In this document: positions 2,533 to 21,775 of the stretch, piece by piece
Numbering within the stretch: position 1 is the first letter of the stretch
How the letters are laid out: each line of letters begins with the position of its first letter
Assembly (NCBI GenBank): GCA_016217735.1
Contig: JACRGQ010000013.1
Location: 10,428-74,427 of the forward strand
Source of the DNA: Nitrospinota bacterium
GTDB lineage: Bacteria > Nitrospinota_A > UBA7883 > JACRGQ01
Direction: 5' to 3'
Length of the DNA stretch: 64,000 nucleotides
Program-made: the position numbers and the translations under genes
The notes under the pieces: model-generated
Database searches by the model: none
What the model saw: only the letters and a program-made list of their open reading frames with translations
What the model was told of the DNA's origin: nothing

Positions 2533-2684
2533 CCGGTGGGTACACAATTGGGGAGGCGCGGAAAGATTTTTCACTCCGCGCCGGATATGGCCTATAGGCC
2601 ACATTGTGTACATCATGCCGCAAGGCATGAGCCCTCCATTGGCGCCAATGCGCCAACGTACCCATTAAAATGGGTACCCACCGG
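2533..2684. repeat. Structured intergenic element, family 2, copy X (GGTGGGTACACAATTG ... GTACCCACCGGG with several internal hairpins)
   Basis: Outer inverted repeat CCGGTGGGTAC / GTACCCACCGG. Internal palindromes ggcctataggcc, catgccgcaaggcatg, ttggcgccaatgcgccaa, tacccattaaaatgggta. Related copy at 21682-21775. Confidence 0.5.
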
Positions 2685-2759
2685 GAACGGCTTAGGTGGG
2701 TATGGACTTCGTTTGGCGTATCGGCGTGCGCCGCCGGTATCGGGCGTTTGGCGCGGGCC

Positions 2760-3677
2760 TTACTTCCAGACTGCGGTGATCGGGAAGGATTTTGCGTCCT
2801 CGCGCCCCATATCCCCCAGTTGAAAATTGTCTTCCACCGTGCGGAGCAGGTTGTAGTGGTCATAGACCGTGTCATCCGTCGTTCCCGCCCGGATCATGGA
2901 GCCGAGGAAAACGGTATAGACCGGGCTGTTGCCGGTTTTGCTTTCATCGAACGTCACCACCACCAGCGTCTTTGCCAACTCCGGCCGGGCGAGAAGCGGC
3001 TCCAAAAAACCTTTCAGCCAATTCGACGCATACGCTATGGAGGTGTCGTGTCCGTCGTTATCCATGTTGGGCACGAACAGCGAATAGCTGGGCAGGGGAA
3101 AAGGCAGGTTCGAGGCATCGGCTACATGTTGCAAGCAGCGCGGCCCGCGCGTGATGGGAGTGTAGGAGAGGAACGGGGCGTGTTTCCGCCCGTAGCGGCC
3201 CCGGTAGTCGCCAGTGAAGCAATTCGCCGGACCGCCCGGATAGTCTTCGGCGAATTGAGCCCAGCCAAGGCCCTTTGCCTCCAGGAGGTCGGCGATGGAG
3301 GAGACGTCCAGATTTTTTTGTGCGTTGCTGGTCGCGCCGAACGTCGATCCGCCCGTCAACGCAAGATAGTTTGGATAGGAGGGATGCCCCACGCCGTGAT
3401 AGTTGGCGAGGTATGCGCCCCGCCGCGCCAACTCCTTCATGTAGGGGTCTTGCAGGACGTCCGCGGCGTCCTGATTTTCAAGAATAATGATAAACACCTG
3501 GTCGAATTTGCGGCCACCGGGCCAATCAGCCGCGGCTTGGGCCGGAGTGGCGCTCGATGATTGTCCGGCGTTGGCCGCGCCGTTCGCCGGTTTGCCGGCA
3601 TGGCTTTGGGGCGCGGCGGTCAAAAGCGCGGCCACGAACGCCGCGCCGAAGAGCGAAGCGGAAACGGTTTTATTCAT
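2760..3677 (-). CDS. Secreted phosphoesterase-family protein (phospholipase C / acid phosphatase family)
   Basis: Signal peptide MNKTVSASLFGAAFVAALLTAAPQSHA. Conserved ILENQD, YPNYLALTGGS and VTFDE blocks typical of the phosphoesterase family. Confidence 0.7.
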   Translation of the reverse strand: MNKTVSASLFGAAFVAALLTAAPQSHAGKPANGAANAGQSSSATPAQAAADWPGGRKFDQVFIIILENQDAADVLQDPYMKELARRGAYLANYHGVGHPSYPNYLALTGGSTFGATSNAQKNLDVSSIADLLEAKGLGWAQFAEDYPGGPANCFTGDYRGRYGRKHAPFLSYTPITRGPRCLQHVADASNLPFPLPSYSLFVPNMDNDGHDTSIAYASNWLKGFLEPLLARPELAKTLVVVTFDESKTGNSPVYTVFLGSMIRAGTTDDTVYDHYNLLRTVEDNFQLGDMGREDAKSFPITAVWK

Positions 3678-3800
3678 AGATGCCCTCCACGCCGTCCAGA
3701 ATCGTGGAAGGGGGATGAAAAGTCAAACCGGTTGCGAGCACCGCGCAGGTTTCCGTTTTATATAATTTCTCTAAAGCCCGAATTTCAATATAGTTTAGTC

Positions 3801-4016
3801 GTGGATGCGCTGGTTGAAAGAGTAACGAACAGGATTGCCGAGGCGATACACCCGGATAAAATTATCCTGTTCGGCTCCCGCGCCAATGGCACGGCCACCG
3901 AGGAAAGTGACATCGACCTTGTGGTGGTCTATTCGGGGCCGAAAACCACGCGGGAAGTTCACCGCCTGTTCTTGCGGCGTGATTTCAGGCGTGCTGGAGC
4001 TTGCCTTTCGGCTTAA
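3801..4016 (+). CDS. Minimal nucleotidyltransferase (MNT-type antitoxin-like) domain protein, probably truncated or orphan
   Basis: ILFGSRANGTATEESDIDLVVV is an NTase GS...DxD signature. Putative GTG start; short C-terminus; no adjacent HEPN partner. Confidence 0.35.
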   Translation: MDALVERVTNRIAEAIHPDKIILFGSRANGTATEESDIDLVVVYSGPKTTREVHRLFLRRDFRRAGACLSA

Positions 4017-4040
4017 ATGCGGTCTTGCCTATCGAGCCTT

Positions 4041-4415
4041 TTAAACCGCGATTTCCAGGCTGATGCGCGTATAGCCCACTTGGGGCGCCGCTTCCCGTCG
4101 TCCTTTCTTTGCCCGATGCATTTCAACAAGGCCGAGGTTTTCCAGCAAGGAAACGTCCGTCATCACGTTTTTCATATTTCGCCCGGAAAACCGCGAAAGC
4201 TCCTGCAAACTCTTCGGCTGTTTTTCCCGGATAAGATGGAGCAGTTCCAGGCGTTTCGGCGTTAACGCCTTGCGAAAACCGGCAAGGCTTTCAAAGTAAA
4301 CCCCTTTTTCGGATTTCACCTTTTCGCCCCGCTCGGCCGCCTCACCGGCTTTCACGAAATCATCCAGCGCCGCTTTCGCGCCCTTGATCCCGATGCGCAC
4401 CTTCTTCACTTTCAT
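4041..4415 (-). CDS. Small winged-helix DNA-binding protein of the type found as antitoxin partners of RelE/ParE-like toxins
   Basis: 124 aa, MKVKKVRIGIKGAKAALDDF...LTPKRLELLHLIREKQPKSLQELSRFSGRNMKNV; family assignment from memory. A 38-codon toxin-like remnant (…ARDEFKGLRKLADDFYKDIEKYKKGLL) overlaps its start. Confidence 0.45.
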   Translation of the reverse strand: MKVKKVRIGIKGAKAALDDFVKAGEAAERGEKVKSEKGVYFESLAGFRKALTPKRLELLHLIREKQPKSLQELSRFSGRNMKNVMTDVSLLENLGLVEMHRAKKGRREAAPQVGYTRISLEIAV

Positions 4416-4680
4416 AAAAGCCCCTTTTTGTACTTCTCGATGTCCTTATAAAAATCGTCCGCCAGTTTACGAAGCCCTTTGAATTCGTCCCGCGCTTTCA
4501 CTAATGGTATATTATGCCACCAATACAATCAATTCAAGTCATCTATGTACCGCGATATTGTCAATCATGGTTAGAAGCCGTCCCGCGCGAAAAGCTGTCG
4601 ATATTTTGGGGAATAGTGTTAAAATCCTATTCTTTATGAGTGCGAAAGGCTTAAACGGCGATTGCATATTTGGAGGATTT

Positions 4681-4806
4681 ATGGCGGATAACGAACAGTC
4701 AGGAAAGCCGGGCTCGGGCAAGTGGATATTTGCCGCCATTCTCATCGCGATAGCCATTTTCATTGGCGTCAGCGTTGGCTACAAGATCATCACACGGGGT
4801 CCGTGA
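4681..4806 (+). CDS. Small single-TM membrane protein (41 aa) upstream of the ABC transporter
   Basis: Strong RBS tttGGAGGatttATG; MADNEQSGKPGSGKWIFAAILIAIAIFIGVSVGYKIITRGP has one hydrophobic helix. Confidence 0.35.
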   Translation: MADNEQSGKPGSGKWIFAAILIAIAIFIGVSVGYKIITRGP

Positions 4807-4846
4807 TTTCCCGAAAACAATAGACTAAAACACCGGAGAGAGCATC

Positions 4847-5824
4847 ATGAAGGCGGTAGAGACCCATTCCCTGCGCCACACCTATCCCGCCCGCAGCGAT
4901 GCAAAAGCGGGGATGGCGCTCAAGGGGATTGATTTTTCAGTCGATCCGGGGGATATCTTCGGCTTTCTGGGGCCGAACGGTTCCGGCAAGACGACCCTCT
5001 TTAAAATCTTTTCCACCCTCATCGAGCCGTCCGAAGGCTCCGTTTTTATCTTCGGCCACGATGCGGTGAAGGGCGTGGACGAGGCCCGCAAGATGATGGG
5101 GGTTGTTTTTCAGCACCCGAGCCTCGACAAAATGTTGACCGTCGAGGAAAACCTGACCTTTCACGGCCACTTGTACGGACTCTCCGGCGCTCCGCTGAAA
5201 AAGCGGGTGGAGGAAATGATGGATCGCTTCGGGCTTACCCCGCGGCGCGGCGAATCCGTCCAGCACCTTTCCGGCGGCTACCGGCGGCGCGTGGAACTTG
5301 CCAAGGGGCTGATTCACAGTCCCACGCTGCTCATCCTGGACGAGCCGTCCACCGGGCTGGACCCGGCGGCGCGGCGCGAGTTCTGGGAAACCATTACCGC
5401 GCTCAAAAAGAAAAACGGGATGACCGTGCTGGTGACAACCCACCTCGGCGAAGAGGGGGATCGGTGCGACCGGCTGGCTATCATGTACGAAGGCGAGGTC
5501 ATCGCCGCCGGCACGCCCGACCAATTGAAGGCCGGCATCGGCGGCGACGTGGTAACAATCCACAGCGCCGAGCCGGATATGCTGCTCGATACGCTTGATG
5601 CCAAATTCGGCGTCCGTCCGGTGCTGCTGGACGGCGTTATACGGATGGAACTGCCGCGCGGGCACGAAATGATCCCAAAAATAGTGGAGGCGTTCCCCGG
5701 CAAGATCACCGCCATCAGCGTGGGCAAGCCGACGCTGGAAGACGTATTCGTCCACAAAACCGGCCGGATGCTCTGGCTGGAAGGGGAGGGGACCGCCGCC
5801 CCGAAGGAGGCCAAAGGTGAATAA
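4847..5824 (+). CDS. ABC transporter ATP-binding protein (ABC-2 exporter family)
   Basis: Walker A GPNGSGKTT, signature LSGGYRRRV, Walker B LLILDEPSTGLD. Confidence 0.9.
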   Translation: MKAVETHSLRHTYPARSDAKAGMALKGIDFSVDPGDIFGFLGPNGSGKTTLFKIFSTLIEPSEGSVFIFGHDAVKGVDEARKMMGVVFQHPSLDKMLTVEENLTFHGHLYGLSGAPLKKRVEEMMDRFGLTPRRGESVQHLSGGYRRRVELAKGLIHSPTLLILDEPSTGLDPAARREFWETITALKKKNGMTVLVTTHLGEEGDRCDRLAIMYEGEVIAAGTPDQLKAGIGGDVVTIHSAEPDMLLDTLDAKFGVRPVLLDGVIRMELPRGHEMIPKIVEAFPGKITAISVGKPTLEDVFVHKTGRMLWLEGEGTAAPKEAKGE

Positions 5825-6596
5825 TCTGATGCTCGCGGTATGGTCGCTGTGGCGGCGCGAGATGATCCGTTTCTACCGCGACCGGAGCCGCGTTATCGGC
5901 GGGCTGGTGCCCCCCGTTATTTTCTGGTTTTTCATCGGCAGCGGCCTTTCCGGCAGCTTCAGCGTGGGGAGCGGCGAGACGGTTCTCAACTACCGCCAGT
6001 ATTTTTTCCCCGGCACACTGGTGCTGATTTTCCTTTTCACCGCCGTGTTTTCCACCATTTCCATCATCGAAGACCGGCGCGAGGGATTCTTGCAGTCGGT
6101 GCTGGTGGCGCCGGTGCCGCGGCTGGCAATCGTGCTGGGCAAGCTGTTCGGCAGCGCTTCGCTCGCCTTTCTGCAGGGGATGCCGTTCCTTATCGCCGCG
6201 CCGTTCATTGGACTTAACCTTACCGCCTCGTCGCTCCTCATCTCGCTCTTTATCCTGTTCGGCGTGGCTTTTTCGCTGGCGGGCGTCGGCTTCCTCATCG
6301 CGTGGCGGCTGGACAGCACACAGGGGTTCCACGCCATCATGAACATGGGGCTAATCCCGCTCTGGCTGCTTTCCGGCGCGCTCTTCCCGATCCACAACAT
6401 TCCCGGTTGGCTCTCCACGGTGGTGCGCCTGAATCCGCTCACCTATTGCATCGCGGCGCTGCAGCACGAGCTGTTCGTTCCCGGGGCGATACCCGATCTC
6501 CCTCCGCTCTGGTTCTGCGTGTCGGTCATCGCCGCTTTTTCATCGGCCACCCTTTTTGCGGCCGTATTCATCACCCGCAGGGGAAGGGATCGATAA
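5817..6596 (+). CDS. ABC-2 type transporter permease
   Basis: 259 aa polytopic membrane protein; 8-nt overlap with the ATPase gene. Confidence 0.8.
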   Translation: MNNLMLAVWSLWRREMIRFYRDRSRVIGGLVPPVIFWFFIGSGLSGSFSVGSGETVLNYRQYFFPGTLVLIFLFTAVFSTISIIEDRREGFLQSVLVAPVPRLAIVLGKLFGSASLAFLQGMPFLIAAPFIGLNLTASSLLISLFILFGVAFSLAGVGFLIAWRLDSTQGFHAIMNMGLIPLWLLSGALFPIHNIPGWLSTVVRLNPLTYCIAALQHELFVPGAIPDLPPLWFCVSVIAAFSSATLFAAVFITRRGRDR

Positions 6597-7036
6597 TGGA
6601 TAACGGCATTATTCACCTGTTGCCGCATTTTCAGGCGTTCTGCAACAGCGCGTCCACCGCGTTGCTGCTCTGCGGCGGTTATTTCATCGCTAAAAAGAAG
6701 GATAAAGAAACCCACAAGAAATGCATGGCGGGGGCGTTTCTCGCCTCGACGCTGTTTCTTGTTTCCTACCTCACGTATCACTCCGTCGCCGGCGGCTTGA
6801 AGTTCGGCGGCCAGGGAACCGTGCGCGGCATTTATTTCTTTATTCTCGGCACACACACCATCTTGGCGGCGGTCGCGCTGCCGATGATACTGGTGACGTT
6901 TTACCGGGCGCTGAAAGAGAACTTCGAGAAGCACAAGAAAATAGCTCCCTGGACGCTTGGGGTTTGGCTGTATGTTTCCGTCACCGGCGTGGTGATTTAC
7001 GTGATGCTCTATCACCTCTATCCGGGAACCCGTTAG
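6596..7036 (+). CDS. DUF420 family membrane protein
   Basis: Internal ATG at 6596 after the permease stop; the MDNGIIHLLPHF...SYLTYH pattern resembles DUF420. Confidence 0.6.
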   Translation: MDNGIIHLLPHFQAFCNSASTALLLCGGYFIAKKKDKETHKKCMAGAFLASTLFLVSYLTYHSVAGGLKFGGQGTVRGIYFFILGTHTILAAVALPMILVTFYRALKENFEKHKKIAPWTLGVWLYVSVTGVVIYVMLYHLYPGTR

Positions 7037-7049
7037 CGGTAATCCGGCG

Positions 7050-8381
7050 ATGCGGGAAAATGGCGGGCGCTACCATCTGCTCACCTTCGGGTGCCAGATG
7101 AACAAATACGATTCGGAAAAAATCGAGGGGCTGCTCGCCCGCGAAGGGTTGACCGCCACGGCCAACCCGGAAGAAGCCGACCTCATTCTGCTCAACACCT
7201 GCTCCATCCGCGACAAGGCGGAGCACAAGGTTTTTTCGAAGCTCGGCATTTTGAGCGCCGCAAAGCGGCCGGATCAGCTTATCGCGCTTGGCGGCTGCAT
7301 GGCATCCCTCCGCAAGGAGGATATTTTCCGCCGCGCCCCGATGGTCGACATGGTCTTCGGGCCGGACGCCATCGAGCGGCTGCCGCAGATGATAGGCGAT
7401 TTCCGGGCCACCCGCGCGCGGCAGATCGATGTCGCCTTCAACGATACCGCCACATGGGACCGTCCGGAAGACGGCGCGGTGCGTGAAAGCGCCACGGTGG
7501 CGTGGGTCGGCATCATGAAGGGGTGCGATAACCGCTGCACTTATTGCGTGGTGCCGGATACCCGCGGGCCGGAGGTGAGCCGTCCGGCCGGTTCCATCCT
7601 TGCTGAGGTCAAAGGGCTGGCCGCCAAGGGGTATAAGGGGATCAATCTGCTGGGGCAGAATGTGAACAGCTACGGCAAAGGGCTGCCGTCATCCGCCGGT
7701 TTTCCCGGCCTGCTCCGGATGGTGAACAAGGTGGAGGGGGTGGAGCGGATACGATTCATGACCTCCCATCCGAAAGACCTCAACGACGGGCTTATCGCCG
7801 CGATGATGGAATGCAAAAAGGTCTCTCCTTCGTTCCACCTGCCGTTGCAGGCGGGGAGCGACCGCATCCTCGGCCTGATGCGCCGCGGCTATACCGCCGC
7901 CGAATATATGGAAAAAATCCGCCGTCTGAAAAATGCGGCGCCGCACATCACCATCTCCGCCGACATCATGATCGGTTTTCCCGGCGAAACGGAAGCGGAG
8001 TTTTTGGATACCATCCGGGTGATGGAGGAGGTGGCGTTCGACTCGCTTTTCCTCTTCAACTATTCGCCGCGCCCCGGCACTCCCTCCGCCGAATGCACGG
8101 ATATGGTGCCGCGCGCCGTCTCGCGGGAGCGTTTTGACCGGGCGATGCTGCTGCAAAGAAAAATCGTCGCGCAAAAGAACATGTTATTGGTGGGCACGAC
8201 GCAGCAGGTGCTTTGCGAAGGGGCGGCCGAACGGCCGGGCGCGGTCTATGGACGGACGCCGGGGAACCATCTGGTCGTTTTCGAGGGGGAGCCGTTGCTG
8301 GCGGGGCGGACATTGCCGGTAACAATCACCTCTTTTTCGGGGTACAATTTGTCTGGTACATTGGCGCAGGGAGGATTGTAG
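7050..8381 (+). CDS. miaB: tRNA-i6A37 methylthiotransferase MiaB (radical SAM MTTase)
   Basis: N-terminal LLTFGCQMNKYDSE MTTase domain, radical SAM core CDNRCTYC, C-terminal TRAM domain; 443 aa. Confidence 0.9.
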   Translation: MRENGGRYHLLTFGCQMNKYDSEKIEGLLAREGLTATANPEEADLILLNTCSIRDKAEHKVFSKLGILSAAKRPDQLIALGGCMASLRKEDIFRRAPMVDMVFGPDAIERLPQMIGDFRATRARQIDVAFNDTATWDRPEDGAVRESATVAWVGIMKGCDNRCTYCVVPDTRGPEVSRPAGSILAEVKGLAAKGYKGINLLGQNVNSYGKGLPSSAGFPGLLRMVNKVEGVERIRFMTSHPKDLNDGLIAAMMECKKVSPSFHLPLQAGSDRILGLMRRGYTAAEYMEKIRRLKNAAPHITISADIMIGFPGETEAEFLDTIRVMEEVAFDSLFLFNYSPRPGTPSAECTDMVPRAVSRERFDRAMLLQRKIVAQKNMLLVGTTQQVLCEGAAERPGAVYGRTPGNHLVVFEGEPLLAGRTLPVTITSFSGYNLSGTLAQGGL

Positions 8382-8387
8382 AAGGCG

Positions 8388-9319: not shown

Positions 9320-12300
9320 TTGAAACACGAGGACTTCGTACACCTCCACCTGCACAGCGAATACTCGCTGCTGGACGGGGCGATACGCTTCGACAACCTC
9401 CTTAAAAAAGCCGAGGAGTTCAAGATGCCCGCCGTGGCCGTCACCGACCACGGCAACCTCTTCGGGGCCATCGAGTTTTACCAAAAAGGGATGAAAAGCC
9501 CCGTCAAGCCGATCGTCGGCTGTGAAATCTACATCACCGGCGGCAGCCGGCACGACCGCGGCGGCGTGGCGGGGGGCGACGGTGAAAACGATCCCAACAC
9601 CTATCACCTCATTCTGCTCATCCAAAACCTCAAGGGTTACCGCAACCTCTGCAAGATAGCCTCCGCCGCCTACACGGAAGGGTTCTACTACAAGCCGCGC
9701 ATCGACAAGGAGTACCTGGCGCAACACAACGAGGGGCTGATCGCCCTCACCGCCTGCATTAAAGGCGAAGTGCCGCGCAAGATACTCAAAGGGGACGACG
9801 CCGCCACGGAAAAGGCGCTCGGCTTTTACAAAGACGTTTTCGGCGACCGGCTTTATCTGGAACTGCAAAACCACGGCATCCCCGAACAGCGCAAGGTGAA
9901 CACCGCGCTCATCGAGATGTCGAAAAAGCACAGCCTGAAGCTGGTGGCCACCAACGACTGCCACTACATGGAGCAGAGCCACTGGGAGGCGCACGACGCC
10001 ATGCTCTGCATCGGCACCGGCAAGATGATCAGCGATACCAACCGGATGCGCTACAGCGCCCACGAGTTCTACTTCAAATCGCCCGACGAGATGCGGATGC
10101 TTTTCAAGGAAGTGCCGGAGGCGATCACCAACACCCGCGAAGTGGCCGACCGTTGCAACCTCGATCTCAAGCTGGGGGAATATCACCTGCCGGCCTATAC
10201 CGTCCCCTCCGAGGAACCGCCGCAGCAGTTCATGGAAAGTCTCGTGGACCACAACCTCACCCTGCGGCTGGAGGAAAGCCGTAAGCGGGGGGACGTCATC
10301 GGCGAAGAACAGGAAAAAGAGTACCGCGAACGGATGCGGATGGAGCTGGCGGTCATCAAGAAAATGAACTTCGCCGGCTACTTCCTCATCGTCTGGGATT
10401 TCGTGAACTACGCGAAGACCCAGAACATCCCCGTCGGGCCCGGCCGCGGTTCCGCCGCCGGCTCGCTGGTGGCCTGGACGCTTGGCATCACCGACCTCGA
10501 CCCCATCAAGTACGGCCTTCTCTTTGAACGGTTCCTGAATCCCGACCGCATATCGATGCCGGATATCGATATCGACTTCTGCATGAACCGGCGGGGCGAG
10601 GTGATCAAATACGTCACCGACAAATACGGCGCGAAAAACGTGGGGCAGATCATCACCTTCGGCACCATGAAGGCCCGCGCCGTCATCCGCGATGTGGGGC
10701 GCGTGATGGGCGTCCCCTACGGCGAGGTGGACGGCATCGCCAAGCTGGTGCCGGAAGAGCTGAAAATGACGCTCGCCAAGGCCATCGAGATGGAGCCGAA
10801 GCTGGCCGACATGGAAAAGAAAGACCCGCAGGTGAAAAAGCTGCTGGAGATCGCCAAGGTGCTGGAAGGCATCTCGCGCCACGCCAGCGTACACGCCGCG
10901 GGCGTGGTTATCGCGCCGGGCGATCTCACCGACTTTGTCCCGCTTTACAAAACGAACAAGGACGAAGTGGTGACCCAGTTCACCATGAAATATATCGAGG
11001 AACTGGGGCTGCTCAAGATGGACTTTCTCGGCCTGCGCACGCTCACCGTCATCGATTGGACGGTGAAAAGCATACGGAAGGGCAAGGCCGCCGCGTTCGA
11101 TATCAGAGCGATACCGATGGATGACCCGGCGACGTTTAAACTGCTGCAGGATGCGCGCACGCTGGGGGTCTTCCAGCTCGAATCGAGCGGCATGCGCGAC
11201 CTGATGCGCAAGCTCAAGCCCGAGCACTTCACCGACATTATCGCGCTTGTCGCCCTTTTCCGTCCCGGCCCGCTCAACTCCGGCATGGCCGACAGCTTTA
11301 TCCACCGCAGGCACGGCACCGAGAAGGTGGAGAACATCGTGCCGCAACTGGGCGAAATACTGAAAGAAACCCACGGCGTCATGGTTTATCAGGAACAGGT
11401 CATGAAGATCGCCAACGAACTGGCCGGCTTCACCATGGCGCAGGCCGATACGCTGCGCAAGGCAATGGGGAAAAAAGACGCCAAAACGATGGAGAAGCTG
11501 CGCCACGATTTCGTGGATGGGTGCAAGAAAAACAAAATCGCCGAGGAGAAGGCCGCCACCATCTTCGGGCAGATACAGGAATTCGCCGAATACGCCTTCA
11601 ATAAATCCCATTCCGCGGCCTACGCGCTGGTGAGCTATCAGACCGCGTACCTCAAGACGAACTACCCCGAGGAGTACATGGCCTCGCTGCTCACCTCCGA
11701 ACGGGACAGCACCGACAAAGTGGTGCTCTACCTCAACGAGTGCCGCGATCTCGGCATACCGGTACTCCCGCCCGACATCAATGAATCGGAGGTGGACTTC
11801 GGCGCGCTCGCGGGAAAAATCGTTTTCGGCCTGGCCGCCGTGAAGGGGGTCGGCGTCGGCGCCGTATCCGAGATCATCCGCGCGCGGCAGGAGGGAGCGC
11901 CGTTCGCGTCGCTTACCGAGTTCGCCCGGCGCATCGACGGCAAGCAGGTGAACCGGCGCGTGTTCGAGGCGCTCATCAAGTGCGGCGCGTTCGACCGGCT
12001 GAACAAAAACCGCGCCGCGCTTTTCGATTCGCTGGACAGCGTGACGGCGGAGGCCGCCAAAGACCGCGAAGAGACCCAGATGGGACAATCCAACATGTTC
12101 GCCGCCATCGAGACCGCCGCCGACCGCGAGAAGCGGCTCATCAGGGATTTGCCGGACTGGCCGCAGGCCGAACGGTTGCAGCACGAAAAAGAGGCGCTCG
12201 GCTTTTATATAACCGGCCATCCGATGGAGCGCTACCTGCAAGACCAGAAGCGGCTTGCCACCCATCAGGCGGGACAGTTGGCCGACACCGTCAATAAACA

Positions 12301-15998: not shown

Positions 15999-16026
15999 AC
16001 CAAATATATACTATATTAATTAGGGT

Positions 16027-16239: not shown

Positions 16240-16271
16240 TTTCGCCCCGGGTGGATGGCTGCGCGGCGGTG

Positions 16272-17807
16272 TTATTTTTTGGCGGGCATCCGCACACGCT
16301 GGCTGAACCAGGTAAGGCCGATGAGGAAGAGGAAGATGACGCCGGTGAGGAAGAAGACGTCGTCCGTCGCCAGCATCACCGCCTGTCTATCCACTATGCG
16401 CGAGACCGTCTGGAGGGCCGCCTCGAATCCCATCCCCATCTCCTCCATTTTATCCCGCATGAAGTTCCACGCCGGGTTGTAGGGGGAGGTGTTCTCGGCC
16501 AGCATCGTCCGGTGGTGGCCGATACGGCCATCCCACAGTGTTATCACCAGCGAGGTGCCGAAGCTGCCGCCGAGTATCCTTACGAAGTTCGTCATTCCGG
16601 CGGCGCTGGCTACCTTGTCGTGCGGTATGTGGGAGAGCGAGATGGTGGTCATCGGCACGAAGAAGCAGGCCATTCCCAGCCCTTGCATCAGGCGGGGAAG
16701 CGCAACGCCGCCGAAGGTGATGTCGGTGTTGAACGACGCCTGCCAAAAGCTGGTGAGCGCGAAAACGGAGAAGGCGAAAGTTGCCACCCACCGCAGGTCG
16801 GCGCGGTGGAGGTTGGCCGCCACGATGGGGGTGAGGATGAGCGTAAAGACGCCGATGGGGGCGCTGGCGAGTCCCGCCCACAGGGCGGTGTAGCCCATCT
16901 GCGTCTGCAGCCAGAGCGGTATCAGCACCGCGTTGCCGAAAAAGGCCATGTAGCCGAGGCTGAGGGCGGCGGTCGCCACGGTGTAGTTCCGGTTCCTGAA
17001 AAGCGTGAGGTCGACGATCGGGTGTTCCTCCATCAGTTCCCATGCGATGAAAAAGACGAAGCCCACGAACGCCGTCACCGCCAGCGCGGTGATCTTGGGG
17101 GAATCGAACCAGTCCTCCTGCTGCCCCATGTCGAAGCAGAGCTGAAGGCTTCCCACCCAGATGGCCAGCAGCGCCAGCCCCACCTTGTCCACTGGCTGTT
17201 TCACGATGGCGGTTTCGCGCTCCTTCAGCACGTTCCATGTGATGTAGGCGCAAGCGAAGCCGACCGGCACGTTGATGTAGAAAATCCACTCCCAGCCGTG
17301 GTTGTCGGTGATCCACCCCCCCATGATCGGGCCGATGATCGGCGCGACGACGGTGGTGATGGACCAAAAGCCGAGCGCCATCCCTTTTTTCTCGGGGGGG
17401 TAACATTTCAGCAGCAGCGCCTGCGAGATGGGGATCATCGGCCCCGCCACGGCCCCTTGCAGGGCGCGGAAGTTCACCAGCGTTTCAAAGGTGGGGGCCA
17501 GCCCGCAGAGTATCGAGGCGAAGCTGAAAAGGAGCGTACAGGTGACGAAAAGCCGCACCTCGCCGAACCGGCGCGCCAGCCAGCCGGAGAGCGGCACCAC
17601 GATGGCGGTGGCCACGGCGTAGGAGGTGATGATCCACGTTCCCTGATTGGGGCTGACCGAAAGATCGCCCGCGATGTGCGGGATGGAAACGTTGGCGATG
17701 GTTGTGTCCAGCACGTTCATGAATGTCGCCAGCGCCAGCGATACGGTGGCGATGGCAAGCGGCGCGCCGGTGAGGTAGGGGTGTCGCGGAGCCGCCTGCG
17801 GCCGCAC
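16272..17807 (-). CDS. emrB: MFS drug/H+ antiporter, DHA2 (EmrB/QacA) family, 14 TM
   Basis: 511 aa with conserved MFS motifs; gene pair with an upstream HlyD-family gene. Confidence 0.85.
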   Translation of the reverse strand: MRPQAAPRHPYLTGAPLAIATVSLALATFMNVLDTTIANVSIPHIAGDLSVSPNQGTWIITSYAVATAIVVPLSGWLARRFGEVRLFVTCTLLFSFASILCGLAPTFETLVNFRALQGAVAGPMIPISQALLLKCYPPEKKGMALGFWSITTVVAPIIGPIMGGWITDNHGWEWIFYINVPVGFACAYITWNVLKERETAIVKQPVDKVGLALLAIWVGSLQLCFDMGQQEDWFDSPKITALAVTAFVGFVFFIAWELMEEHPIVDLTLFRNRNYTVATAALSLGYMAFFGNAVLIPLWLQTQMGYTALWAGLASAPIGVFTLILTPIVAANLHRADLRWVATFAFSVFALTSFWQASFNTDITFGGVALPRLMQGLGMACFFVPMTTISLSHIPHDKVASAAGMTNFVRILGGSFGTSLVITLWDGRIGHHRTMLAENTSPYNPAWNFMRDKMEEMGMGFEAALQTVSRIVDRQAVMLATDDVFFLTGVIFLFLIGLTWFSQRVRMPAKK

Positions 17808-17809
17808 GG

Positions 17810-18979
17810 TCAGCGCGCCTCCGCCACCGGGGCCATTTTCAGGTTTTTGGCGATGATCGCGGAGATGAGTTCGTCGGCGCCCGCATCCTCGGCGTCATAC
17901 ACGGTGGTGGCGAGTTCGTGCTTGGCGGTTCCGGGCTGAAGCGGGCCGCCGTTGCCGTGAATATCGACGGTGGCGGCGAGCGAAAGCCCCACCACGAGGG
18001 GATGCTGCTTAAGCTCTTCCGGCATGAGCGATATTTTCACCGGTACGCGCTGCACCACCTTGATCCAGTTGCCGGTGGCGTTTTGCGCCGGAAGGACTGA
18101 AAAAACGGAGCCGGTTCCGGCGCCGATCCCCACCACCGTGCCGTGGAAGCGGACGCCGCGGCCGTACATGTCCGAAACGATTTCCACCGGCTGGCCGGCG
18201 CGCATCCGTTTGAGCTGGTTCTCCTTGAAGTTCGCCTCCACGCTCAGCGCGTCGACCGGCACCACCGCCATGAGCGGCTTGCCGGGGACGGCCCGTTCCC
18301 CCAGTTGCACGGCGCGCCGCGCCACATAGCCGCTCACCGGCGCCGCCAGATTCATCCGTTGCAAGGCCACATACGCTTCGCGCACCTTTGTCTTCGCCGT
18401 CGCCACATGCGGGTTGTCCTCGGCGCGGTTCCCCGCGGCGGTGATTTGTGCTTCGGCCAGCTCGTGCCGCGCGAGGCGGACGGCGTTTTGGGCATTCTCG
18501 TATTCCAGGCGGGCGTGGTCGTACGCCTCCTGCGTGACGGCGCGGTCGCCGAACAGTTTTTCGCGCCGTTCAAAATCGGTTTTCGTTTTTTGCAGGTCGG
18601 CCTCCCGCATGGCAAGGCGCGCCAGCCGGGTTTTCACCCCTTCCAGCGTATTTCCCGCCTGGCGCACCGCCACCGCCAGTTCGCTCTCCGCTTTTTCCAG
18701 GGCGATTTTCGCGTCGGTGCCGTCCATCCGCACCAGCGTATCCCCCTGTTTCACGAAGTCGGTGTTATCGGCCATGATGGCCACCACCGTGCCGCCGGCC
18801 TGGGGGGTGATGGAGACGAGGTTGCCGGCGACGTAGGCGTTGTCGGTATATTCGTAAAACCGTCCGCTCGTCCACCACCAGCCGCCCCATGCCGCGCCGG
18901 CGATGGCGAAGACCGCGGCGATCCTGAGCATGACCGTTATCCGTCCGCCGTTGGCGGGCCGCTGTTTGGTTTCTTCCAT
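17810..18979 (-). CDS. emrA: HlyD-family membrane fusion protein (EmrA-like)
   Basis: 389 aa, N-terminal TM, coiled coil, C-terminal beta-barrel domain; precedes emrB. Confidence 0.85.
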   Translation of the reverse strand: MEETKQRPANGGRITVMLRIAAVFAIAGAAWGGWWWTSGRFYEYTDNAYVAGNLVSITPQAGGTVVAIMADNTDFVKQGDTLVRMDGTDAKIALEKAESELAVAVRQAGNTLEGVKTRLARLAMREADLQKTKTDFERREKLFGDRAVTQEAYDHARLEYENAQNAVRLARHELAEAQITAAGNRAEDNPHVATAKTKVREAYVALQRMNLAAPVSGYVARRAVQLGERAVPGKPLMAVVPVDALSVEANFKENQLKRMRAGQPVEIVSDMYGRGVRFHGTVVGIGAGTGSVFSVLPAQNATGNWIKVVQRVPVKISLMPEELKQHPLVVGLSLAATVDIHGNGGPLQPGTAKHELATTVYDAEDAGADELISAIIAKNLKMAPVAEAR

Positions 18980-19019
18980 GTGCGCCGTTTTTCTTATCAG
19001 CGTGGAGCGGTGCCGGCGG

Positions 19020-19811
19020 TCAGCCGTTCATGAAGCCGAGACCCACAACGACCTGCAGGTAGGGGCCGGTGAAAGAAGGGGAGGGGCCGCCGCTCGCGCC
19101 CCCTTCGGTGCTTTGCCAGTCGCCGATGGGGGCGGAGAAAAGGTATCCCGCGCGGAACCCGAAGGTGAACGGCACATGGGTGCCGGCTCCCGTCTCGGTG
19201 AGCGGCGTGAATCCGTCCGCCGCGATGGCGATGTTGAAGACGGCCGAATTGTAGGCGAGTTGCGCGCCGCGCTTGGGATCCGCCAGCGTCTGGTCGAAAG
19301 TGGGGGAGCCGGTGGATTGTATGTTGAGCGCGAGGGTGCCGATGCCGATTCCCGCCATCGGGTAGATCATGTAGCTGTCGGAGCGCCGCACCACGTAGCC
19401 CGCGTTCACCACGAGGTAGCCGCCGGTTACATAGAGGCTATACGCGCCGCTGGAGATTTTTTGCTGGTTCATCCAGTGCAGCTCGCCGCCGGCGATCCAG
19501 TCATCTATCACGGCGTGGGCGCCGATGCCGAGCATGACGAAGTTTTTATCGATGGTGGAGTAGCCGTTGGCTTTCAAGCGGTTGTTGAGCGCGTCGAGGT
19601 CGAGGGAATTGTTCCCCAGCATCAGGTAAACTGCCGCGCCGTGCCGGTTTTTCACGAAGCGGATATCGGTGTTCGGTTTTTGATCTTCGCCGGATTCGGC
19701 TTCGGCCCCGGCGGAAAAATCCCCCGCCCACGCGGGGGTGGCGATCAGCAGCGTCAGGAGACAAAGGGCGGCAATGCGTGTTTTCAAAGTGTACCTCCAA
19801 CTGTTATGCAT
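19020..19811 (-). CDS. Outer-membrane beta-barrel protein (porin/OmpW-like)
   Basis: Signal peptide …ALCLLTLLIATPAWAG; alternating hydrophobic beta-strand pattern; C-terminal GLGFMNG. Confidence 0.5.
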   Translation of the reverse strand: MHNSWRYTLKTRIAALCLLTLLIATPAWAGDFSAGAEAESGEDQKPNTDIRFVKNRHGAAVYLMLGNNSLDLDALNNRLKANGYSTIDKNFVMLGIGAHAVIDDWIAGGELHWMNQQKISSGAYSLYVTGGYLVVNAGYVVRRSDSYMIYPMAGIGIGTLALNIQSTGSPTFDQTLADPKRGAQLAYNSAVFNIAIAADGFTPLTETGAGTHVPFTFGFRAGYLFSAPIGDWQSTEGGASGGPSPSFTGPYLQVVVGLGFMNG

Positions 19812-19883
19812 TCATTGTACCTCAATGAGCGGCGAAGGGAAGGTGTCACGCCGGGATTGCGGCGGGAGGGGTTCAGCCGGGGA

Positions 19884-21638
19884 TCACACGGCGGTGAGGC
19901 GCAGCACTTCCTCGAAGGTGGTTATCCCTTCGGCCATTTTCCGCGCGGCGTTCTCCTTCAGCGTTCTCATGCCGCTTTTGCGGGCCATCTCCTTGATCGC
20001 CGTGTCGGGGGTTTTGCCGTCGATCAGTTGGCGGATGTCGTTGCTCACCTCCAGCACCTCGTGGACGCCGGTGCGCCCGTGGTAGCCGGTGGAGCGGCAG
20101 TGGTCGCACCCCGTCCCTTTTTTGAGGCGCACCGGTCCACTGGCGGAAAGGCCGAAGCTTTTAAGTTCGTCCGCGGTATGCTCGATATCGGCGATGCAGC
20201 GGGGGCAGATCATCCGCACCAAACGTTGCGCCACCACGCCGATGAGCGAGCTTTTGACCAGATACGGCTCGATGCCGATGTCGTACAGGCGCGTCAGGGA
20301 CGATACGGTGTCGTTGGTGTGCAGGGTGGAAAGGACAAGGTGCCCGGTGAGCGCCGCCTGCACGGCGTTCTGGGCCGTTTCGTGGTCGCGGATCTCGCCG
20401 ATCATGATGACGTCCGGGTCTTGGCGCAGGATGGCGCGCAGGGCGGCGGCGAAGGTGAACTCGATGACCGGCTGCACCGCCACCTGATTGAACTCCGGCA
20501 CCACCATTTCCACCGGGTCTTCGATGGTGACGATGTTGCGGTCGGGCGACTCGATGTATTTGAGGGACGAGTAGAGCGTGTTCGTCTTTCCCGATCCGGT
20601 GGGGCCGGTGACGAGGATGATGCCGTGGGGCCGCGCCAGGAAGCGTTGATAGCGTTCCAGTTCCTCGGGATAGAGGCCGAGCGCGCCGAGTCCGCGCAAG
20701 GCCATCTCGGCGTCGAAAATGCGGATGACCGCCTTCTCCCCGAAGACGGTGGGGAGGATGGAAACGCGCATCTCGCTTTCCTTTCCCTCCTTTTGCACCT
20801 TGATGCGGCCGTCCTGCGGGCGGCGCTTTTCCGATACGTCGAGCCGGGCCAATATCTTGATGCGCGAGAGCACCGCGCCATGCACGGCGCGGGGGATGCG
20901 CTGCGTTTCGTTCAGCGCGCCGTCGATGCGCATCCGCACCACGGTCTCCTCCCGCTTTGGCTCAATGTGGATGTCGCTGGCGCGGTTGGCCAGCGCATAG
21001 TGCAGGATCAGTTCCACCGCGTTTTGGATATGCTTGTCGGAGGAACTGATCTCTTCTTCCGATTTGAGGCGGCTCAGTTGCTCCAGATCGGAAAGCGCGG
21101 CGCCGGCGGAGACCCCCTTCTCCGCCTCGCGCATGGTGGCGCGGAAGCCGTAGAACTGGTTGATGATCCGCTCAATATCGCTCCGCGCCGCGATCACCCG
21201 GTTGATGTCGAGACCGGAAAGTTTTTTTATCTGCTCCAACGCCTCGCCCGTTTCCGGGTCGGCCACGGCGACGGTCAGCGCTCCCTCCGTTTTTTCCAGC
21301 GGCACCACCATATGCCACAGGGCGAACGGGCGGGTGATGGTGCCGGCCACGATATTGCCGTCCAGTTCCAGCGGATCGATGCGGCGGAACGGCAGGCCGA
21401 ATTCCCGCGCCACGGCGCGTGTGATCGCCTCTTCGTCCAGCGGTTTGCCGCCGGCGGTGAAATTGAGGGCGGCGATGAAGGGAATCGGCAGTTTAGGTAT
21501 TTTTTCTTTTTCGCTCCGGCGGCGGTGACGGCCCCGCTGCTCCCACGCGCGGCGGATATGCTCGCTTTGCGTGGCGGTAATCGCTTTCTGGCGTAGCAAC
21601 AGGTCGGTGAGTTTTTCAATGTTATTGATGACGGTCAT
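19884..21638 (-). CDS. Type II secretion / type IV pilus assembly ATPase (GspE/PilB/MshE family), orphan
   Basis: T2SE_Nter-like N-terminus, Walker A GPTGSGKT, tetracysteine CPRC…CDHC; no adjacent GspF or pilin genes. Confidence 0.88.
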   Translation of the reverse strand: MTVINNIEKLTDLLLRQKAITATQSEHIRRAWEQRGRHRRRSEKEKIPKLPIPFIAALNFTAGGKPLDEEAITRAVAREFGLPFRRIDPLELDGNIVAGTITRPFALWHMVVPLEKTEGALTVAVADPETGEALEQIKKLSGLDINRVIAARSDIERIINQFYGFRATMREAEKGVSAGAALSDLEQLSRLKSEEEISSSDKHIQNAVELILHYALANRASDIHIEPKREETVVRMRIDGALNETQRIPRAVHGAVLSRIKILARLDVSEKRRPQDGRIKVQKEGKESEMRVSILPTVFGEKAVIRIFDAEMALRGLGALGLYPEELERYQRFLARPHGIILVTGPTGSGKTNTLYSSLKYIESPDRNIVTIEDPVEMVVPEFNQVAVQPVIEFTFAAALRAILRQDPDVIMIGEIRDHETAQNAVQAALTGHLVLSTLHTNDTVSSLTRLYDIGIEPYLVKSSLIGVVAQRLVRMICPRCIADIEHTADELKSFGLSASGPVRLKKGTGCDHCRSTGYHGRTGVHEVLEVSNDIRQLIDGKTPDTAIKEMARKSGMRTLKENAARKMAEGITTFEEVLRLTAV

Positions 21639-21681
21639 GGGGGCTATTCTACCGCACGGCGGTACTGATTGTGAAAACGGA

Positions 21682-21775
21682 GGTAGGTACACAATTCATT
21701 GTGTACGTTGGCGCGTAGCGCCAACCTGTCGGCCACTTGGGCCGATGTACAGGCTGAAAGCCTGTACCCACCGGG
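21682..21775. repeat. Structured intergenic element, family 2, copy Y
   Basis: GGTAGGTACACAATTCATTGTGTAC…TTGGCGCGTAGCGCCAA…GTACCCACCGGGG shares its ends and hairpins with the 2533-2684 element; lies just upstream of the gspE-like start. Confidence 0.5.

What the first reader, a model, noticed from the sequence alone, without database searches (positions are those of the whole stretch)
2533..21775. Second family of multi-hairpin structured elements (GGTGGGTACACAATTG … GTACCCACCGGG) in 5' regions of minus-strand genes
- A roughly 150-nt element at 2533-2684 (upstream of the cls-like gene) and a roughly 95-nt element at 21682-21775 (immediately upstream of the orphan gspE-like gene) share several features.
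- Shared end motifs: CCGGTGGGTAC at one end and GTACCCACCGG at the other.
- Shared core: CATTGTGTAC plus a TTGGCGC-N4-GCGCCAA hairpin.
- Each element has additional perfect internal palindromes.
- Both lie in the 5' leader of a minus-strand gene, so they could be cis-regulatory RNAs (attenuator or riboswitch-like) or a small repeat class.
Basis: seen in the sequence. Interest (0 to 1): 0.55.

Follow-up and report, generated by a model that had tools for sequence, protein, structure and literature searches.

The report
REP-type palindromic repeats, not riboswitches
The two multi-hairpin elements are copies of a dispersed family of small palindromic DNA repeats (paired REP hairpins, REPIN-like), whose transposase gene (RAYT) is flanked by the same repeats in close relatives, so they are a familiar kind of genomic parasite or passenger in a little-studied phylum, not gene-specific regulatory RNAs.

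Summary
**Observation.** It is real. Both elements exist at the stated coordinates, share ends and hairpin modules, and fold far better than shuffled sequence.

**What they are.**
- They belong to a dispersed repeat family in a Nitrospinae/Nitrospinota lineage.
- Each unit is a head-to-head doublet of REP hairpins. Each REP is a tag GGT(A/G)G plus a perfect 9-bp hairpin with a GTAC foot. The two REPs flank a spacer of two G+C-rich hairpins drawn from a small module set.
- A covariance model finds a third copy in the window (52172-52274, between convergent genes) and a weak fourth (62893-62989). It finds 16 full-length units at E below 1e-7 in relatives, plus weaker partial copies, and none in 741 kb of unrelated genomes.

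**Link to a transposase.** In two independent relatives' contigs, a REP-associated tyrosine transposase (RAYT) gene is flanked on both sides by these units. Two paralogous RAYTs sit beside sister hairpin types.

**Why not a regulatory leader.**
- The elements are not conserved at orthologous loci.
- They fold equally well on both strands and match no Rfam family.
- Element B lies upstream of a conserved promoter-like site.

**Verdict.** This is a new member of a known kind (REP/REPIN-RAYT). Interest is modest.

The parts
2532..2685 (.). Element A: a head-to-head REP doublet. It has tags GGTGG 2535-2539 and CCACC 2678-2682. Terminal REP hairpin 1 has arms 2540-2548 and 2603-2611. Spacer hairpins lie at 2613-2630 and 2639-2656. 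Terminal REP hairpin 4 lies at 2658-2677. The element starts 74 nt after the stop codon of the phosphoesterase ORF (2760) and ends 45 nt before the PLD/cardiolipin-synthase-like ATG (2487).
   Evidence: 47.7 bits; z = -6.5 and -7.9
2549..2602 (.). A 54-nt two-hairpin module nested in the loop of A's first REP hairpin: GGCGCGGA-N12-TCCGCGCC plus ATGGCCTATAGGCCA. The same module sits in REP loops in L060 and L083, and truncated in L025. A related module stands alone at L130 4320-4352.
21682..21776 (.). Element B: a canonical ~93-nt REP doublet. It has tags GGTAG 21682-21686 and CCACC 21768-21772, and hairpins at 21687-21706, 21707-21725, 21729-21745 and 21747-21767. It starts 8-11 nt after the stop codon of the conserved 228-aa ORF (21784-21786) and ends 44 nt before the GspE-like ATG (21638).
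   Evidence: 89.2 bits; z = -7.5 and -8.2
21646..21675 (-). Promoter-like site TTCACA-18 nt-TAGAAT, matching 10 of 12 consensus positions. It lies between element B and the GspE-like start codon. The TAGAAT box is conserved in the orthologues L121 and L122; the upstream hexamer is kept in L121 and altered (GCCACA) in L122. It places B upstream of the likely transcription start.
2494..2499 (-). TAGAAT box 6 nt before the PLD ATG, within AATCCGGGATAGAAT. That 15-mer is conserved in L127, L128 and L129; in L130/L132 only the GATAGAAT box is kept, after an element remnant. It lies between element A and the start codon.
   Evidence: no full sigma-70 match
52172..52274 (.). It has the same doublet architecture (GGTAG...CTACC, four hairpins, shared TCGGCC hairpin) but different terminal hairpins. 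GGTCGACA-TTCT-TGTCGGCC resembles the type-2 REP GTGCGACA-TTCC-TGTCGCAC. It lies between the convergent peptidase M3 gene (stop 52129) and the SPFH/Band_7 gene (stop 52589).
   Evidence: (44.1 bits, E 8e-8)
62893..62989 (.). Copy D, a weak and possibly degenerate relative. It is a multi-hairpin stretch that overlaps the stop codon of a glycosyltransferase ORF (62979) and lies upstream of a radical-SAM/methyltransferase ORF (start 62721).
   Evidence: (29.4 bits, E 1.5e-4)
2686..2759 (.). Possible decayed partial unit next to A (GGTGGGTAT at 2695-2703, TTGGCG-like stretches). The model does not detect it.

Best explanation
**What it is.** A and B are members of a REP (repetitive extragenic palindrome) family arranged as head-to-head doublets, i.e. 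REPIN-like elements.

**Anatomy.**
- The basic REP is a 5' tag GGT(A/G)G followed by a perfect 9-bp hairpin. The hairpin starts and ends with GTAC and has a 2-3 nt loop.
- Two such REPs in inverted orientation enclose a spacer.
- The spacer holds two G+C-rich hairpins taken from a small set (TCGGCCC.., TTGGCGC.., CATGCC..), separated by a short pyrimidine- or purine-rich linker.

**How it most likely works.**
- The elements are non-autonomous.
- They are, or were, spread as single-stranded DNA by a RAYT, an HUH/Y1 transposase of the IS200/IS605 superfamily encoded elsewhere in the genome.
- The RAYT would recognise the hairpin together with the tag at its foot.

**Position in the window.** The copies sit just downstream of stop codons, between co-directional or convergent genes. 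Any effect on expression would be a by-product on the 3' end of the upstream transcript, such as a stabilising or pausing hairpin. It would not be ligand- or signal-dependent control of the downstream gene.

**Shown.**
- The repeat family and its architecture.
- The selective constraint on the hairpins.
- The flanking of RAYT genes by these units in relatives.
- The absence of conservation at orthologous sites.

**Inferred.**
- RAYT-mediated mobilisation.
- The location of the promoters.
- Any RNA-level side effect.
For: **Dispersed family.**
- The window holds 3 solid copies and 1 weak copy.
- The model finds 16 full-length units at E below 1e-7 in contigs of the related MAGs nzgw266, nzgw267 and a Logan contig. 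Weaker partial or truncated copies also occur. These include a tandem array of four units with a 102-nt period at L065 5551-5950.
- There are 0 hits in 741 kb of unrelated control loci.
- The only DNA similarity between the window and those contigs is the repeats themselves.

**Source organism.** The window comes from a Nitrospinae MAG. Its GspE and PLD proteins are 100% identical to proteins of an 84-kb NCBI contig, and nzgw267's GspE is 92% identical.

**RAYT link, found in both directions.**
- L065 was fetched by the repeat motif. It holds an ORF (5010-5498, minus strand) that matches NCBIfam NF047646, REP-associated tyrosine transposase (E 2e-22, 79.6 bits).
- Its only PDB match is 4ER8, TnpA-REP.
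- It has an invariant MPDHxHLL (HUH) motif and the YI..NAV tyrosine.
- It is flanked by units at 4767-5002 and 5528-5950.
- L123 was fetched by RAYT homology (78% identity, independent sample). It has a full unit upstream (784-877) and the start of one downstream (1402-1444).
- Sister RAYTs are flanked by sister hairpin types with the same architecture: 55% identity in L135, 43% in L130 and 50-52% in L124/L126.

**Constraint on the hairpin.** In 18 distinct REP units, 98.1% of cells are paired, against 81.8% in shuffles (0 of 500 shuffles reach the observed value). There are 25 double-change cells against 8.3 in shuffles (0 of 500), and 4 of 9 pairs show compensatory changes.

**Placement typical of REPs (as described in PMC3733652).**
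- Copies lie close to the 3' end of the upstream ORF, or between convergent genes.
- Other examples are L065 362-452, just after a called ORF whose C-terminus looks SecA-like (my own reading, not tested) and before the 3' end of a gyrB-like ORF, and L121 463-537.

**Mixed populations.** Partial units, hybrid doublets and nested modules occur, as in REP/BIME populations.
Against: - No RAYT gene lies in the 64-kb window (tblastn). The rest of the source genome could not be read, so a cognate RAYT in this genome is assumed from relatives.
- The RAYT score is 0.4 bits below NCBIfam's curated cut-off, and the Pfam Y1_Tnp match is below its gathering score.
- The tag is GTGG more often than the canonical GTAG.
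- No clean empty site in a close relative was found, and no excision or insertion event was observed, so mobility is inferred.
- The genome-wide copy number is unknown.
- A copy also sits upstream of the PLD orthologue in nzgw266 (L128 2851-2940). This could be read as a conserved association. However, that copy is a different variant, the upstream gene differs, and nzgw267 lacks it.
Confidence: 0.85

Rival explanations
1. Cis-regulatory leader RNA (riboswitch, attenuator or thermosensor) controlling the PLD/cls-like and GspE-like genes.
For: - Both elements lie 44-46 nt upstream of a start codon on the gene's strand.
- They fold strongly and their hairpins covary.
- nzgw266 also has a family member upstream of its PLD orthologue.
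Against: - No Rfam match.
- Folds and model scores are about equal on both strands.
- The same family lies next to unrelated genes, between convergent genes and around a transposase gene.
- Orthologous loci lack it or carry different sequence.
- A conserved -35/-10-like site lies between B and the ATG.
- No terminator-like U tract is present.
Confidence: 0.03
2. A host-serving structural element whose main role is at the RNA or DNA level. Examples are protection of the 3' end of the upstream mRNA, transcriptional pausing, or protein-binding sites as for E. coli REP/BIME. On this view the RAYT association is historical and there is no current mobility.
For: - Copies lie within about 10-75 nt of upstream stop codons or between convergent genes.
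- The hairpins are perfectly maintained by compensatory change.
- From my own knowledge, not tested here: E. coli REPs stabilise upstream mRNA and can affect translation when close to a stop codon.
Against: - Nothing here tests RNA function.
- Presence varies between close relatives.
- Tandem arrays, truncated units and hybrid doublets look like products of replication and recombination rather than of tailored function.
- This reading is not exclusive of the best explanation.
Confidence: 0.09
3. A MITE derived from a DDE-type insertion sequence, with GGTGGGTACACAAT... as terminal inverted repeats.
For: The elements are 90-150 bp long with 9-15-nt inverted ends.
Against: - No target-site duplication is seen at the ends of any copy. 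The flanks are mutually complementary (CCC / GGG), not direct repeats.
- No DDE transposase with these ends was seen.
- The only transposase genes found next to them are Y1/RAYT genes.
- Each end is itself a perfect hairpin, as in REPs.
Confidence: 0.03

Closest known systems
REPIN-RAYT systems of Pseudomonas fluorescens SBW25 (Bertels and Rainey 2011, PMC3116915; PMC3337134)
   Same: [quoted passage not shown]
- Dispersed in extragenic space.
- A RAYT gene flanked by the cognate repeats.
- Several REP types, each next to its own RAYT paralogue.
   Different: - Here each REP is a perfect palindrome with a GTAC foot and a 2-3 nt loop.
- The spacer is itself two exchangeable hairpin modules.
- The tag is GT(A/G)G.
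- The host is a Nitrospinae/Nitrospinota lineage.
- Replication as a unit and single-copy status of the RAYT were not tested. At least two RAYT paralogues exist in nzgw266.
E. coli REP/BIME and TnpA-REP (PDB 4ER8; PMC3479197)
   Same: - A mosaic of palindromic units with other small motifs.
- An HUH/Y1 enzyme with the HUH motif and catalytic tyrosine.
- A tetranucleotide at the 5' foot of the hairpin.
- The RAYT flanked by the repeats ('REPtron').
   Different: - Sequence similarity of the RAYT to 4ER8 is low (E 1.2e-5).
- E. coli REPs are imperfect palindromes with a strict GTAG tag.
- Whether cleavage here occurs at CT dinucleotides is unknown.
GTAG-tagged REP super-family and its head-head dimers, including hybrid dimers of Stenotrophomonas maltophilia (Di Nocera et al. 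2013, PMC3733652)
   Same: - Tags on the outside of the doublet (HH dimer).
- A 20-100 bp spacer that can hold small stem-loops.
- Hybrid dimers of different REP types.
- Location downstream of ORFs.
- Association with RAYT genes.
   Different: - That survey lists Proteobacteria, Cyanobacteria, Chloroflexi and the PVC group, not Nitrospinae.
- Two thirds of the tags here read GTGG.
- The nested 54-nt loop module of element A is longer than the loops listed there (2-20 bp in its feature table; structured inner loop regions up to 27 bp).
IS200/IS605 insertion sequences
   Same: A Y1 HUH transposase that recognises subterminal hairpins on single-stranded DNA.
   Different: In those elements the transposase lies inside the mobile unit and the unit is multi-copy. 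Here the short repeats are multi-copy without the gene.

Membership tests
REP (GTAG-type repetitive extragenic palindrome) | Short palindromic stem-loop (stem 5-13 bp, loop 2-20 nt per PMC3733652) | tested here: met
   9-bp perfect stems with 2-3 nt loops in A, B and about 30 units of relatives. Covariation: 98.1% of cells paired, 0 of 500 shuffles reach that value.
REP (GTAG-type repetitive extragenic palindrome) | Conserved GTAG tetranucleotide at one foot of the hairpin | tested here: inconclusive
   The tag is GGT(A/G)G. GTAG occurs in about one third of true units (e.g. B's left end at 21683-21686) and GTGG in the rest.
REP (GTAG-type repetitive extragenic palindrome) | Many dispersed extragenic copies in a genome | tested here: inconclusive
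   The window has 3-4 copies in 64 kb. There are 2 copies in 28 kb of relatives' DNA fetched without regard to the repeat and many more in contigs chosen by motif. A whole-genome count was not possible.
REP (GTAG-type repetitive extragenic palindrome) | Mostly downstream of ORFs, between co-directional or convergent genes | tested here: met
   A, B and D lie between co-directional genes and close to the upstream stop codon. C, L065 362-452 and L121 463-537 lie between convergent genes.
REPIN (REP doublet forming a hairpin) | Two REPs in inverted orientation separated by a short spacer, with ends able to pair | tested here: met
   Seen in alignment A2 and its consensus structure, with an outer 5-bp stem plus the terminal hairpins. 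Outer pairing appears in the DNA fold of A.
REPIN (REP doublet forming a hairpin) | RAYT gene flanked by the cognate doublets | tested here: met
   Met in relatives: L065, L123 and L135 with a sister type. For the window's own genome this is not testable, and no RAYT lies in the window.
REPIN (REP doublet forming a hairpin) | The doublet replicates as a unit (excision or insertion events, population structure of sequence variants) | not testable with these tools
   This needs complete genomes or population sequencing.
RAYT (REP-associated tyrosine transposase), for the ORF in relatives | HUH motif and catalytic tyrosine of Y1 transposases | tested here: met
   MPDHxHLL and Y-I-x-x-N-A-V are invariant in 5 homologues. 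They align with H59-M-H61 and Y115 of 4ER8 (residue numbers from PMC3479197).
RAYT (REP-associated tyrosine transposase), for the ORF in relatives | Reaches the curated score of NCBIfam NF047646 (80 bits) | tested here: not met
   79.6 bits, E 2e-22, so 0.4 bits short. Pfam Y1_Tnp scores 21.3 against a cut-off of 23. Homologues are named RayT by JGI and NCBI.
Riboswitch or cis-regulatory leader RNA | Conserved upstream of orthologous genes, strand-specific structure, within the transcribed leader | tested here: not met
   No Rfam hit. Not conserved at orthologous loci. Both strands fold equally well. A promoter-like site lies downstream of B.
MITE of a DDE transposon | Direct target-site duplication flanking terminal inverted repeats | tested here: not met
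   Flanks of about 30 ends were listed and read. No direct repeats were found.

The most novel reading that the evidence does not exclude
This Nitrospinae/Nitrospinota lineage may carry a live REPIN-RAYT 'ecosystem'.
- It has at least three REP hairpin types: the GTAC-footed type, GTGCGACA-TTCC-TGTCGCAC, and (C/G)(G/A)CGGACA-CTC-CTGTCCG.
- Each type lies next to its own RAYT paralogue.
- All three types share the same tag and the same exchangeable spacer hairpins. They also form hybrid doublets and accept nested modules.

If the system is active, it would be a natural specificity series for how a monomeric HUH enzyme reads hairpin foot plus guide tetranucleotide. It would also be an example of vertically persisting REPIN populations outside the Proteobacteria, where they have mostly been studied.
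Probability: 0.4. Interest if true: 0.45.

Novelty: new member of a known kind. Interest (0 to 1): 0.3.

Why it matters
- **Annotation.** It removes a false lead: these are not riboswitch or attenuator candidates. The hairpin clusters in this genome's intergenic regions should be masked as REP/REPIN repeats before any search for structured RNAs.
- **Biology.** It adds a REP-RAYT system in a phylum for which the searched literature holds no such report. The system has unusually regular, perfect GTAC-footed hairpins and a modular spacer. Together with the three RAYT paralogues, this could help work out how RAYTs recognise their REPs.
- **Assembly.** Such repeats probably contribute to contig breaks in these MAGs. 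Several RAYT contigs end inside a unit, for example L123.

Tried and rejected
- **Rfam.** A scan of the whole window at gathering thresholds gave nothing.
- **Short end motifs.** On their own they are not over-represented in the window, so significance had to come from the whole architecture.
- **Genome-contig scan with the 15-mer GGTRGGTACACAATT.** Only 6 of 120 loci were informative, those from nzgw266 and nzgw267.
- **JGI metagenome scans.**
  - The first gave 0 hits.
  - The second gave two singleton 13-bp-arm palindromes in unrelated low-GC contigs, which are not family members.
- **Exact look-ups of the window's own proteins.** These were tried in order to read the rest of the 84-kb source contig, and failed three times. 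A RAYT in the source genome could therefore not be sought.
- **ENA contig of P0123 (RAYT, 75% identity).** No DNA was available.
- **Intrinsic terminator.** Considered and rejected. No stem followed by a U tract is present.
- **tRNA-like or cloverleaf RNA.** Rejected. The four-hairpin shape comes from palindromes that fold identically on both strands.
- **CRISPR-like array (for L065 5551-5950).** Rejected. The whole 102-nt unit is repeated, with no unique spacers.
- **MITE.** Rejected because there are no target duplications.

Full report
**1. The observation**

Element A (core 2535-2682):
- It has an outer pairing, GGTGG with CCACC.
- Its first terminal hairpin has arms GTACACAAT (2540-2548) and ATTGTGTAC (2603-2611). 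These arms are separated by a 54-nt insert that itself forms two hairpins.
- It then has a CATGCC-GCAA-GGCATG hairpin, a pyrimidine-rich linker and a TTGGCGC-CAAT-GCGCCAA hairpin.
- It ends with a second terminal hairpin, GTACCCATT-AA-AATGGGTAC.

Element B (21682-21772) has the same plan without the insert. It reads GGTAG, then GTACACAAT-TC-ATTGTGTAC, GTTGGCGC-GTA-GCGCCAAC, TCGGCC-ACTT-GGGCCGA, GTACAGGCT-GAA-AGCCTGTAC, and finally CCACC.

As single-stranded DNA, each element folds 19-21 kcal/mol better than dinucleotide-preserving shuffles. The z-scores are -6.5 to -8.2, and the result is the same on both strands. The short end motifs alone are not significant in 64 kb.

Both elements lie between co-directional minus-strand genes:
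- A lies between the stop codon of a phosphoesterase-family ORF (2760) and the ATG of a PLD/cardiolipin-synthase-like gene (2487).
- B lies 8-11 nt after the stop codon of a conserved 228-aa ORF (21784) and 44 nt before the ATG of a GspE/T2SSE ATPase gene (21638).

**2. A dispersed repeat family**

*Finding the family in relatives.* A scan of one genome per species with GGTRGGTACACAATT mostly returned chance hits. Six of the 120 loci, however, came from two groundwater MAGs labelled Nitrospinales bacterium nzgw266 and nzgw267, and one locus had five matches. These loci hold many units of the same architecture. Among them is a tandem array of four 93-94-nt units with a 102-nt period at L065 5551-5950.

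*Source organism.* The window itself is from a Nitrospinae MAG. Its GspE and PLD proteins are 100% identical to NCBI proteins on an 84-kb contig. nzgw267 has a GspE that is 92% identical. At the DNA level, the window and those loci share nothing but the repeats.

*Covariance model.* I built a model from nine canonical units.
- In the window with filters off, it finds B (89 bits) and A (48 bits; the insert costs score).
- It also finds a new copy C at 52172-52274 (44 bits) and a weak copy D at 62893-62989 (29 bits).
- In the relatives' loci, 16 distinct full-length units score at E below 1e-7. Several weaker partial or truncated copies also appear.
- In 741 kb of unrelated control loci, it finds nothing at E<=1.

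*Context of C and D.* C lies between the convergent peptidase-M3 and SPFH genes, so it cannot be anyone's 5' leader. D overlaps the stop codon of a glycosyltransferase gene.

**3. Anatomy**

The canonical unit is about 93 nt long. In order, it consists of:
- a tag, GGT(A/G)G;
- a terminal hairpin, GTAC-N5-(2-3 nt)-N5'-GTAC;
- a G+C-rich hairpin;
- a 5-9-nt linker;
- a second G+C-rich hairpin;
- a second terminal hairpin;
- C(C/T)ACC.

The two terminal hairpins with their tags are inverted copies of one motif. The unit is therefore a head-to-head doublet of a 25-nt REP, with a structured spacer.

*Stem variants.* The five variable positions of the stem occur as ACAAT, CCAAT, CCATT, ACATT, AGGCT and ATGCT. 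Each is matched by its complement in the other arm.

*Covariation.* Over 18 distinct REP units:
- 98.1% of cells are paired, against 81.8% in shuffles (0 of 500 shuffles reach the observed value).
- There are 25 double-change cells against 8.3 in shuffles (0 of 500).
- 4 of the 9 pairs show compensatory change.
- Structures slid by one to three columns collapse.

*Variation in the interior.*
- The interior hairpins come from a small set: TCGGCCC, TTGGCGC and CATGCC.
- They occur in either order relative to the ends.
- Truncated units, hybrid doublets and stubs also occur.

*A's insert.* The 54-nt insert recurs in the loop of a terminal hairpin in L060 and L083, and truncated in L025. A related module stands alone in L130. 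It therefore appears to be a separate small module nested in a REP loop.

**4. The transposase link**

*RAYT-1 in L065.* L065 was retrieved by the repeat motif alone.
- Between its repeat clusters lies an ORF (5010-5498, minus strand). It matches NCBIfam NF047646, 'REP-associated tyrosine transposase', at E 2e-22. The score is 79.6 bits, 0.4 bits below the curated cut-off. The Pfam Y1_Tnp match is weak.
- Its only match among solved structures is 4ER8, E. coli TnpA-REP.
- Units end 5 nt after its stop codon. They begin again 29 nt upstream of its ATG.

*The converse test.* I searched for homologues of this protein and fetched their contigs. The closest one with DNA available, L123, is 78% identical and comes from an independent sequencing run. 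It has a full unit 25 nt upstream and the start of another unit 8 nt downstream, where the contig ends.

*Sister RAYTs and sister hairpins.*
- A second paralogue in nzgw266 (L135, 55% identical) is preceded by a doublet with the same tags and the same spacer hairpins. Its terminal hairpins are different: GTGCGACA-TTCC-TGTCGCAC. Window copy C resembles this type.
- A third RAYT (L130) is followed by GG(C/A)CGGACA-type hairpins, which also occur in hybrid doublets.
- A RAYT with 50-52% identity in another Nitrospinota MAG (L124/L126) is flanked by GTAC-footed hairpins with other stems.

*Catalytic motifs.* All five proteins keep the HUH motif (MPDHxHLL) and the tyrosine that aligns with Y115 of TnpA-REP.

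*Limit.* No RAYT is encoded in the window. The remainder of the source contig could not be fetched.

**5. Why it is not a leader RNA**

- Rfam gives nothing.
- Structure and model scores are nearly symmetrical between strands. This is expected for DNA palindromes and not for a strand-specific RNA.

GspE orthologues:
- In nzgw267 (92% identity, same upstream gene), the intergenic region is 553 nt of different sequence, with only a fragment of a unit.
- In a 78%-identical orthologue, the intergenic region is 38 nt with no element.
- What is conserved is TAGAAT 8-9 nt before the ATG. The window and L121 also share the upstream TTTTCACAAT; in L122 that hexamer reads GCCACA.
- The consensus scan calls TTCACA-18-TAGAAT a promoter-like site, matching 10 of 12 positions, against a shuffle mean of 0.1.
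- That site lies between B and the start codon. B is therefore most likely upstream of the transcription start, and the mRNA is probably leaderless or nearly so. This step is inferred.

PLD orthologues:
- nzgw267 has no element.
- nzgw266 has a different variant of the family with a different upstream gene.
- A third genome has only a remnant, AATTGTGTCCCCACCGGGAGGGG.
- All keep GATAGAAT 6-7 nt before the ATG.

The association with these two genes is therefore not conserved. The intergenic regions are simply places where such repeats land or persist.

**6. Mechanism**

The best-supported reading is a REP/REPIN-RAYT system. The repeats are non-autonomous. They are propagated, now or in the past, by the RAYT acting on single-stranded DNA, and the enzyme recognises the hairpin together with the tetranucleotide at its foot.

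For E. coli TnpA-REP, it has been shown that the 5' GTAG at the foot of the hairpin is needed for binding and cleavage. A3 and G4 of that tag are thought to specify the CT cleavage site (PMC3479197). Here position 3 of the tag is A or G. Whether this changes the cleavage site is unknown.

Several features fit what has been described for GTAG-type REPs (PMC3733652) and for REPINs (PMC3116915, PMC3337134, PMC5581495):
- the placement just after stop codons and between convergent genes;
- head-to-head doublets with structured spacers;
- hybrid doublets;
- tandem clusters;
- repeat-specific RAYT paralogues.

Possible side effects on the upstream mRNA, such as a 3' hairpin acting as a barrier to exonucleases or interfering with termination of translation when very close to the stop codon (as for B), are known for E. 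coli REPs from my own knowledge. They were not tested here.

**7. Comparison and novelty**

Membership of the REP/REPIN kind:
- Met: hairpin form, doublet form, genomic placement, and RAYT flanking (the last in relatives only).
- Inconclusive: the strict GTAG tag (GTGG predominates) and the copy number.
- Untestable: replication as a unit.

The RAYT misses NCBIfam's cut-off by 0.4 bits. It has the catalytic motifs, a TnpA-REP structural relative and the defining genomic context.

The literature library holds no paper that mentions both Nitrospin* and repetitive extragenic palindromes. The 2013 survey of GTAG repeats lists other phyla. I therefore rate the finding a new member of a known kind.

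The unusual points are modest variations within that kind:
- perfectly palindromic GTAC-footed hairpins with tiny loops;
- a spacer built from interchangeable hairpin modules;
- a 54-nt module nested in a REP loop;
- three hairpin types sharing one scaffold.

**8. Verdict**

- The reading as a regulatory leader is rejected.
- The reading as a repeat class is confirmed and made precise.
- Interest is 0.3. The result is useful for annotation and as a small addition to REPIN-RAYT biology. It is not surprising to a specialist.

Noticed in passing
window 35299-35366, 56302-56369, 42454-42478; also L083 1523-1575: A different palindromic repeat family, TGTCATYCTGAGC...GAAGRATC..TTCCGGAA..GCTCAGRATGACA, about 68 nt long. 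It co-occurs with the REP doublets in nzgw266.
   Followed up: partly
window 2494-2499 and 21646-21651 (minus strand): A TAGAAT box lies 6-9 nt upstream of the ATG of both the PLD-like and the GspE-like gene. It is conserved in all orthologues read. This suggests leaderless or near-leaderless mRNAs in this lineage.
   Followed up: partly
L135 2269-2361 and 2432-2932; L130 1251-1796 and 1800-1925; L065 4909-5002; L135 379-474 and 4111-4204: Two further REP hairpin types, GTGCGACA-TTCC-TGTCGCAC and (C/G)(G/A)CGGACA-CTC-CTGTCCG. Each lies beside its own RAYT paralogue, and hybrid doublets mix the types.
   Followed up: partly
L065 4767-4788, L065 5528-5550, L123 1402-1419: Half-REP stubs (the tag plus the 5' arm, then a T-rich stretch: GGTGGGTAYCCAATTYTTTATTR) lie directly 5' of a full unit. 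Two of the three are at the edge of a RAYT gene. They could be footprints of strand transfer.
   Followed up: no
window 40290-40329 and 57026-57065: A 40-nt repeat with reiterated CACGAA/CACAAA words (TTTAACCACGAAnAACAC.AA...CACGAA), 78% identical between the two sites. It may be a shared regulatory site.
   Followed up: no
L121 9448-10000: In nzgw267 the intergenic region upstream of the GspE orthologue is 553 nt. It holds other small palindromes (TGTCATCCCCGCGCATGCGGGGATCCAG) and a fragment of a doublet at about 9520-9565. This shows rapid turnover of repeats at this site.
   Followed up: partly
L133 1732-1759, L134 4829-4852: Singleton perfect palindromes GTAGGTACACAAT-NN-ATTGTGTACCTAC occur in two unrelated low-GC metagenome contigs, without the doublet architecture. 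They may be operators, or lone REPs of a distant family.
   Followed up: no
L130 4260-4700: A cluster of several other small palindromic modules lies downstream of a PLD orthologue. Examples are CCCCTTTGAAAAAGGGGG, GGGAGGGGCGGAA..CCGC..CCCC and GGGGATTTGTTAATAAATCCC. These genomes seem rich in mosaic palindromic units.
   Followed up: no
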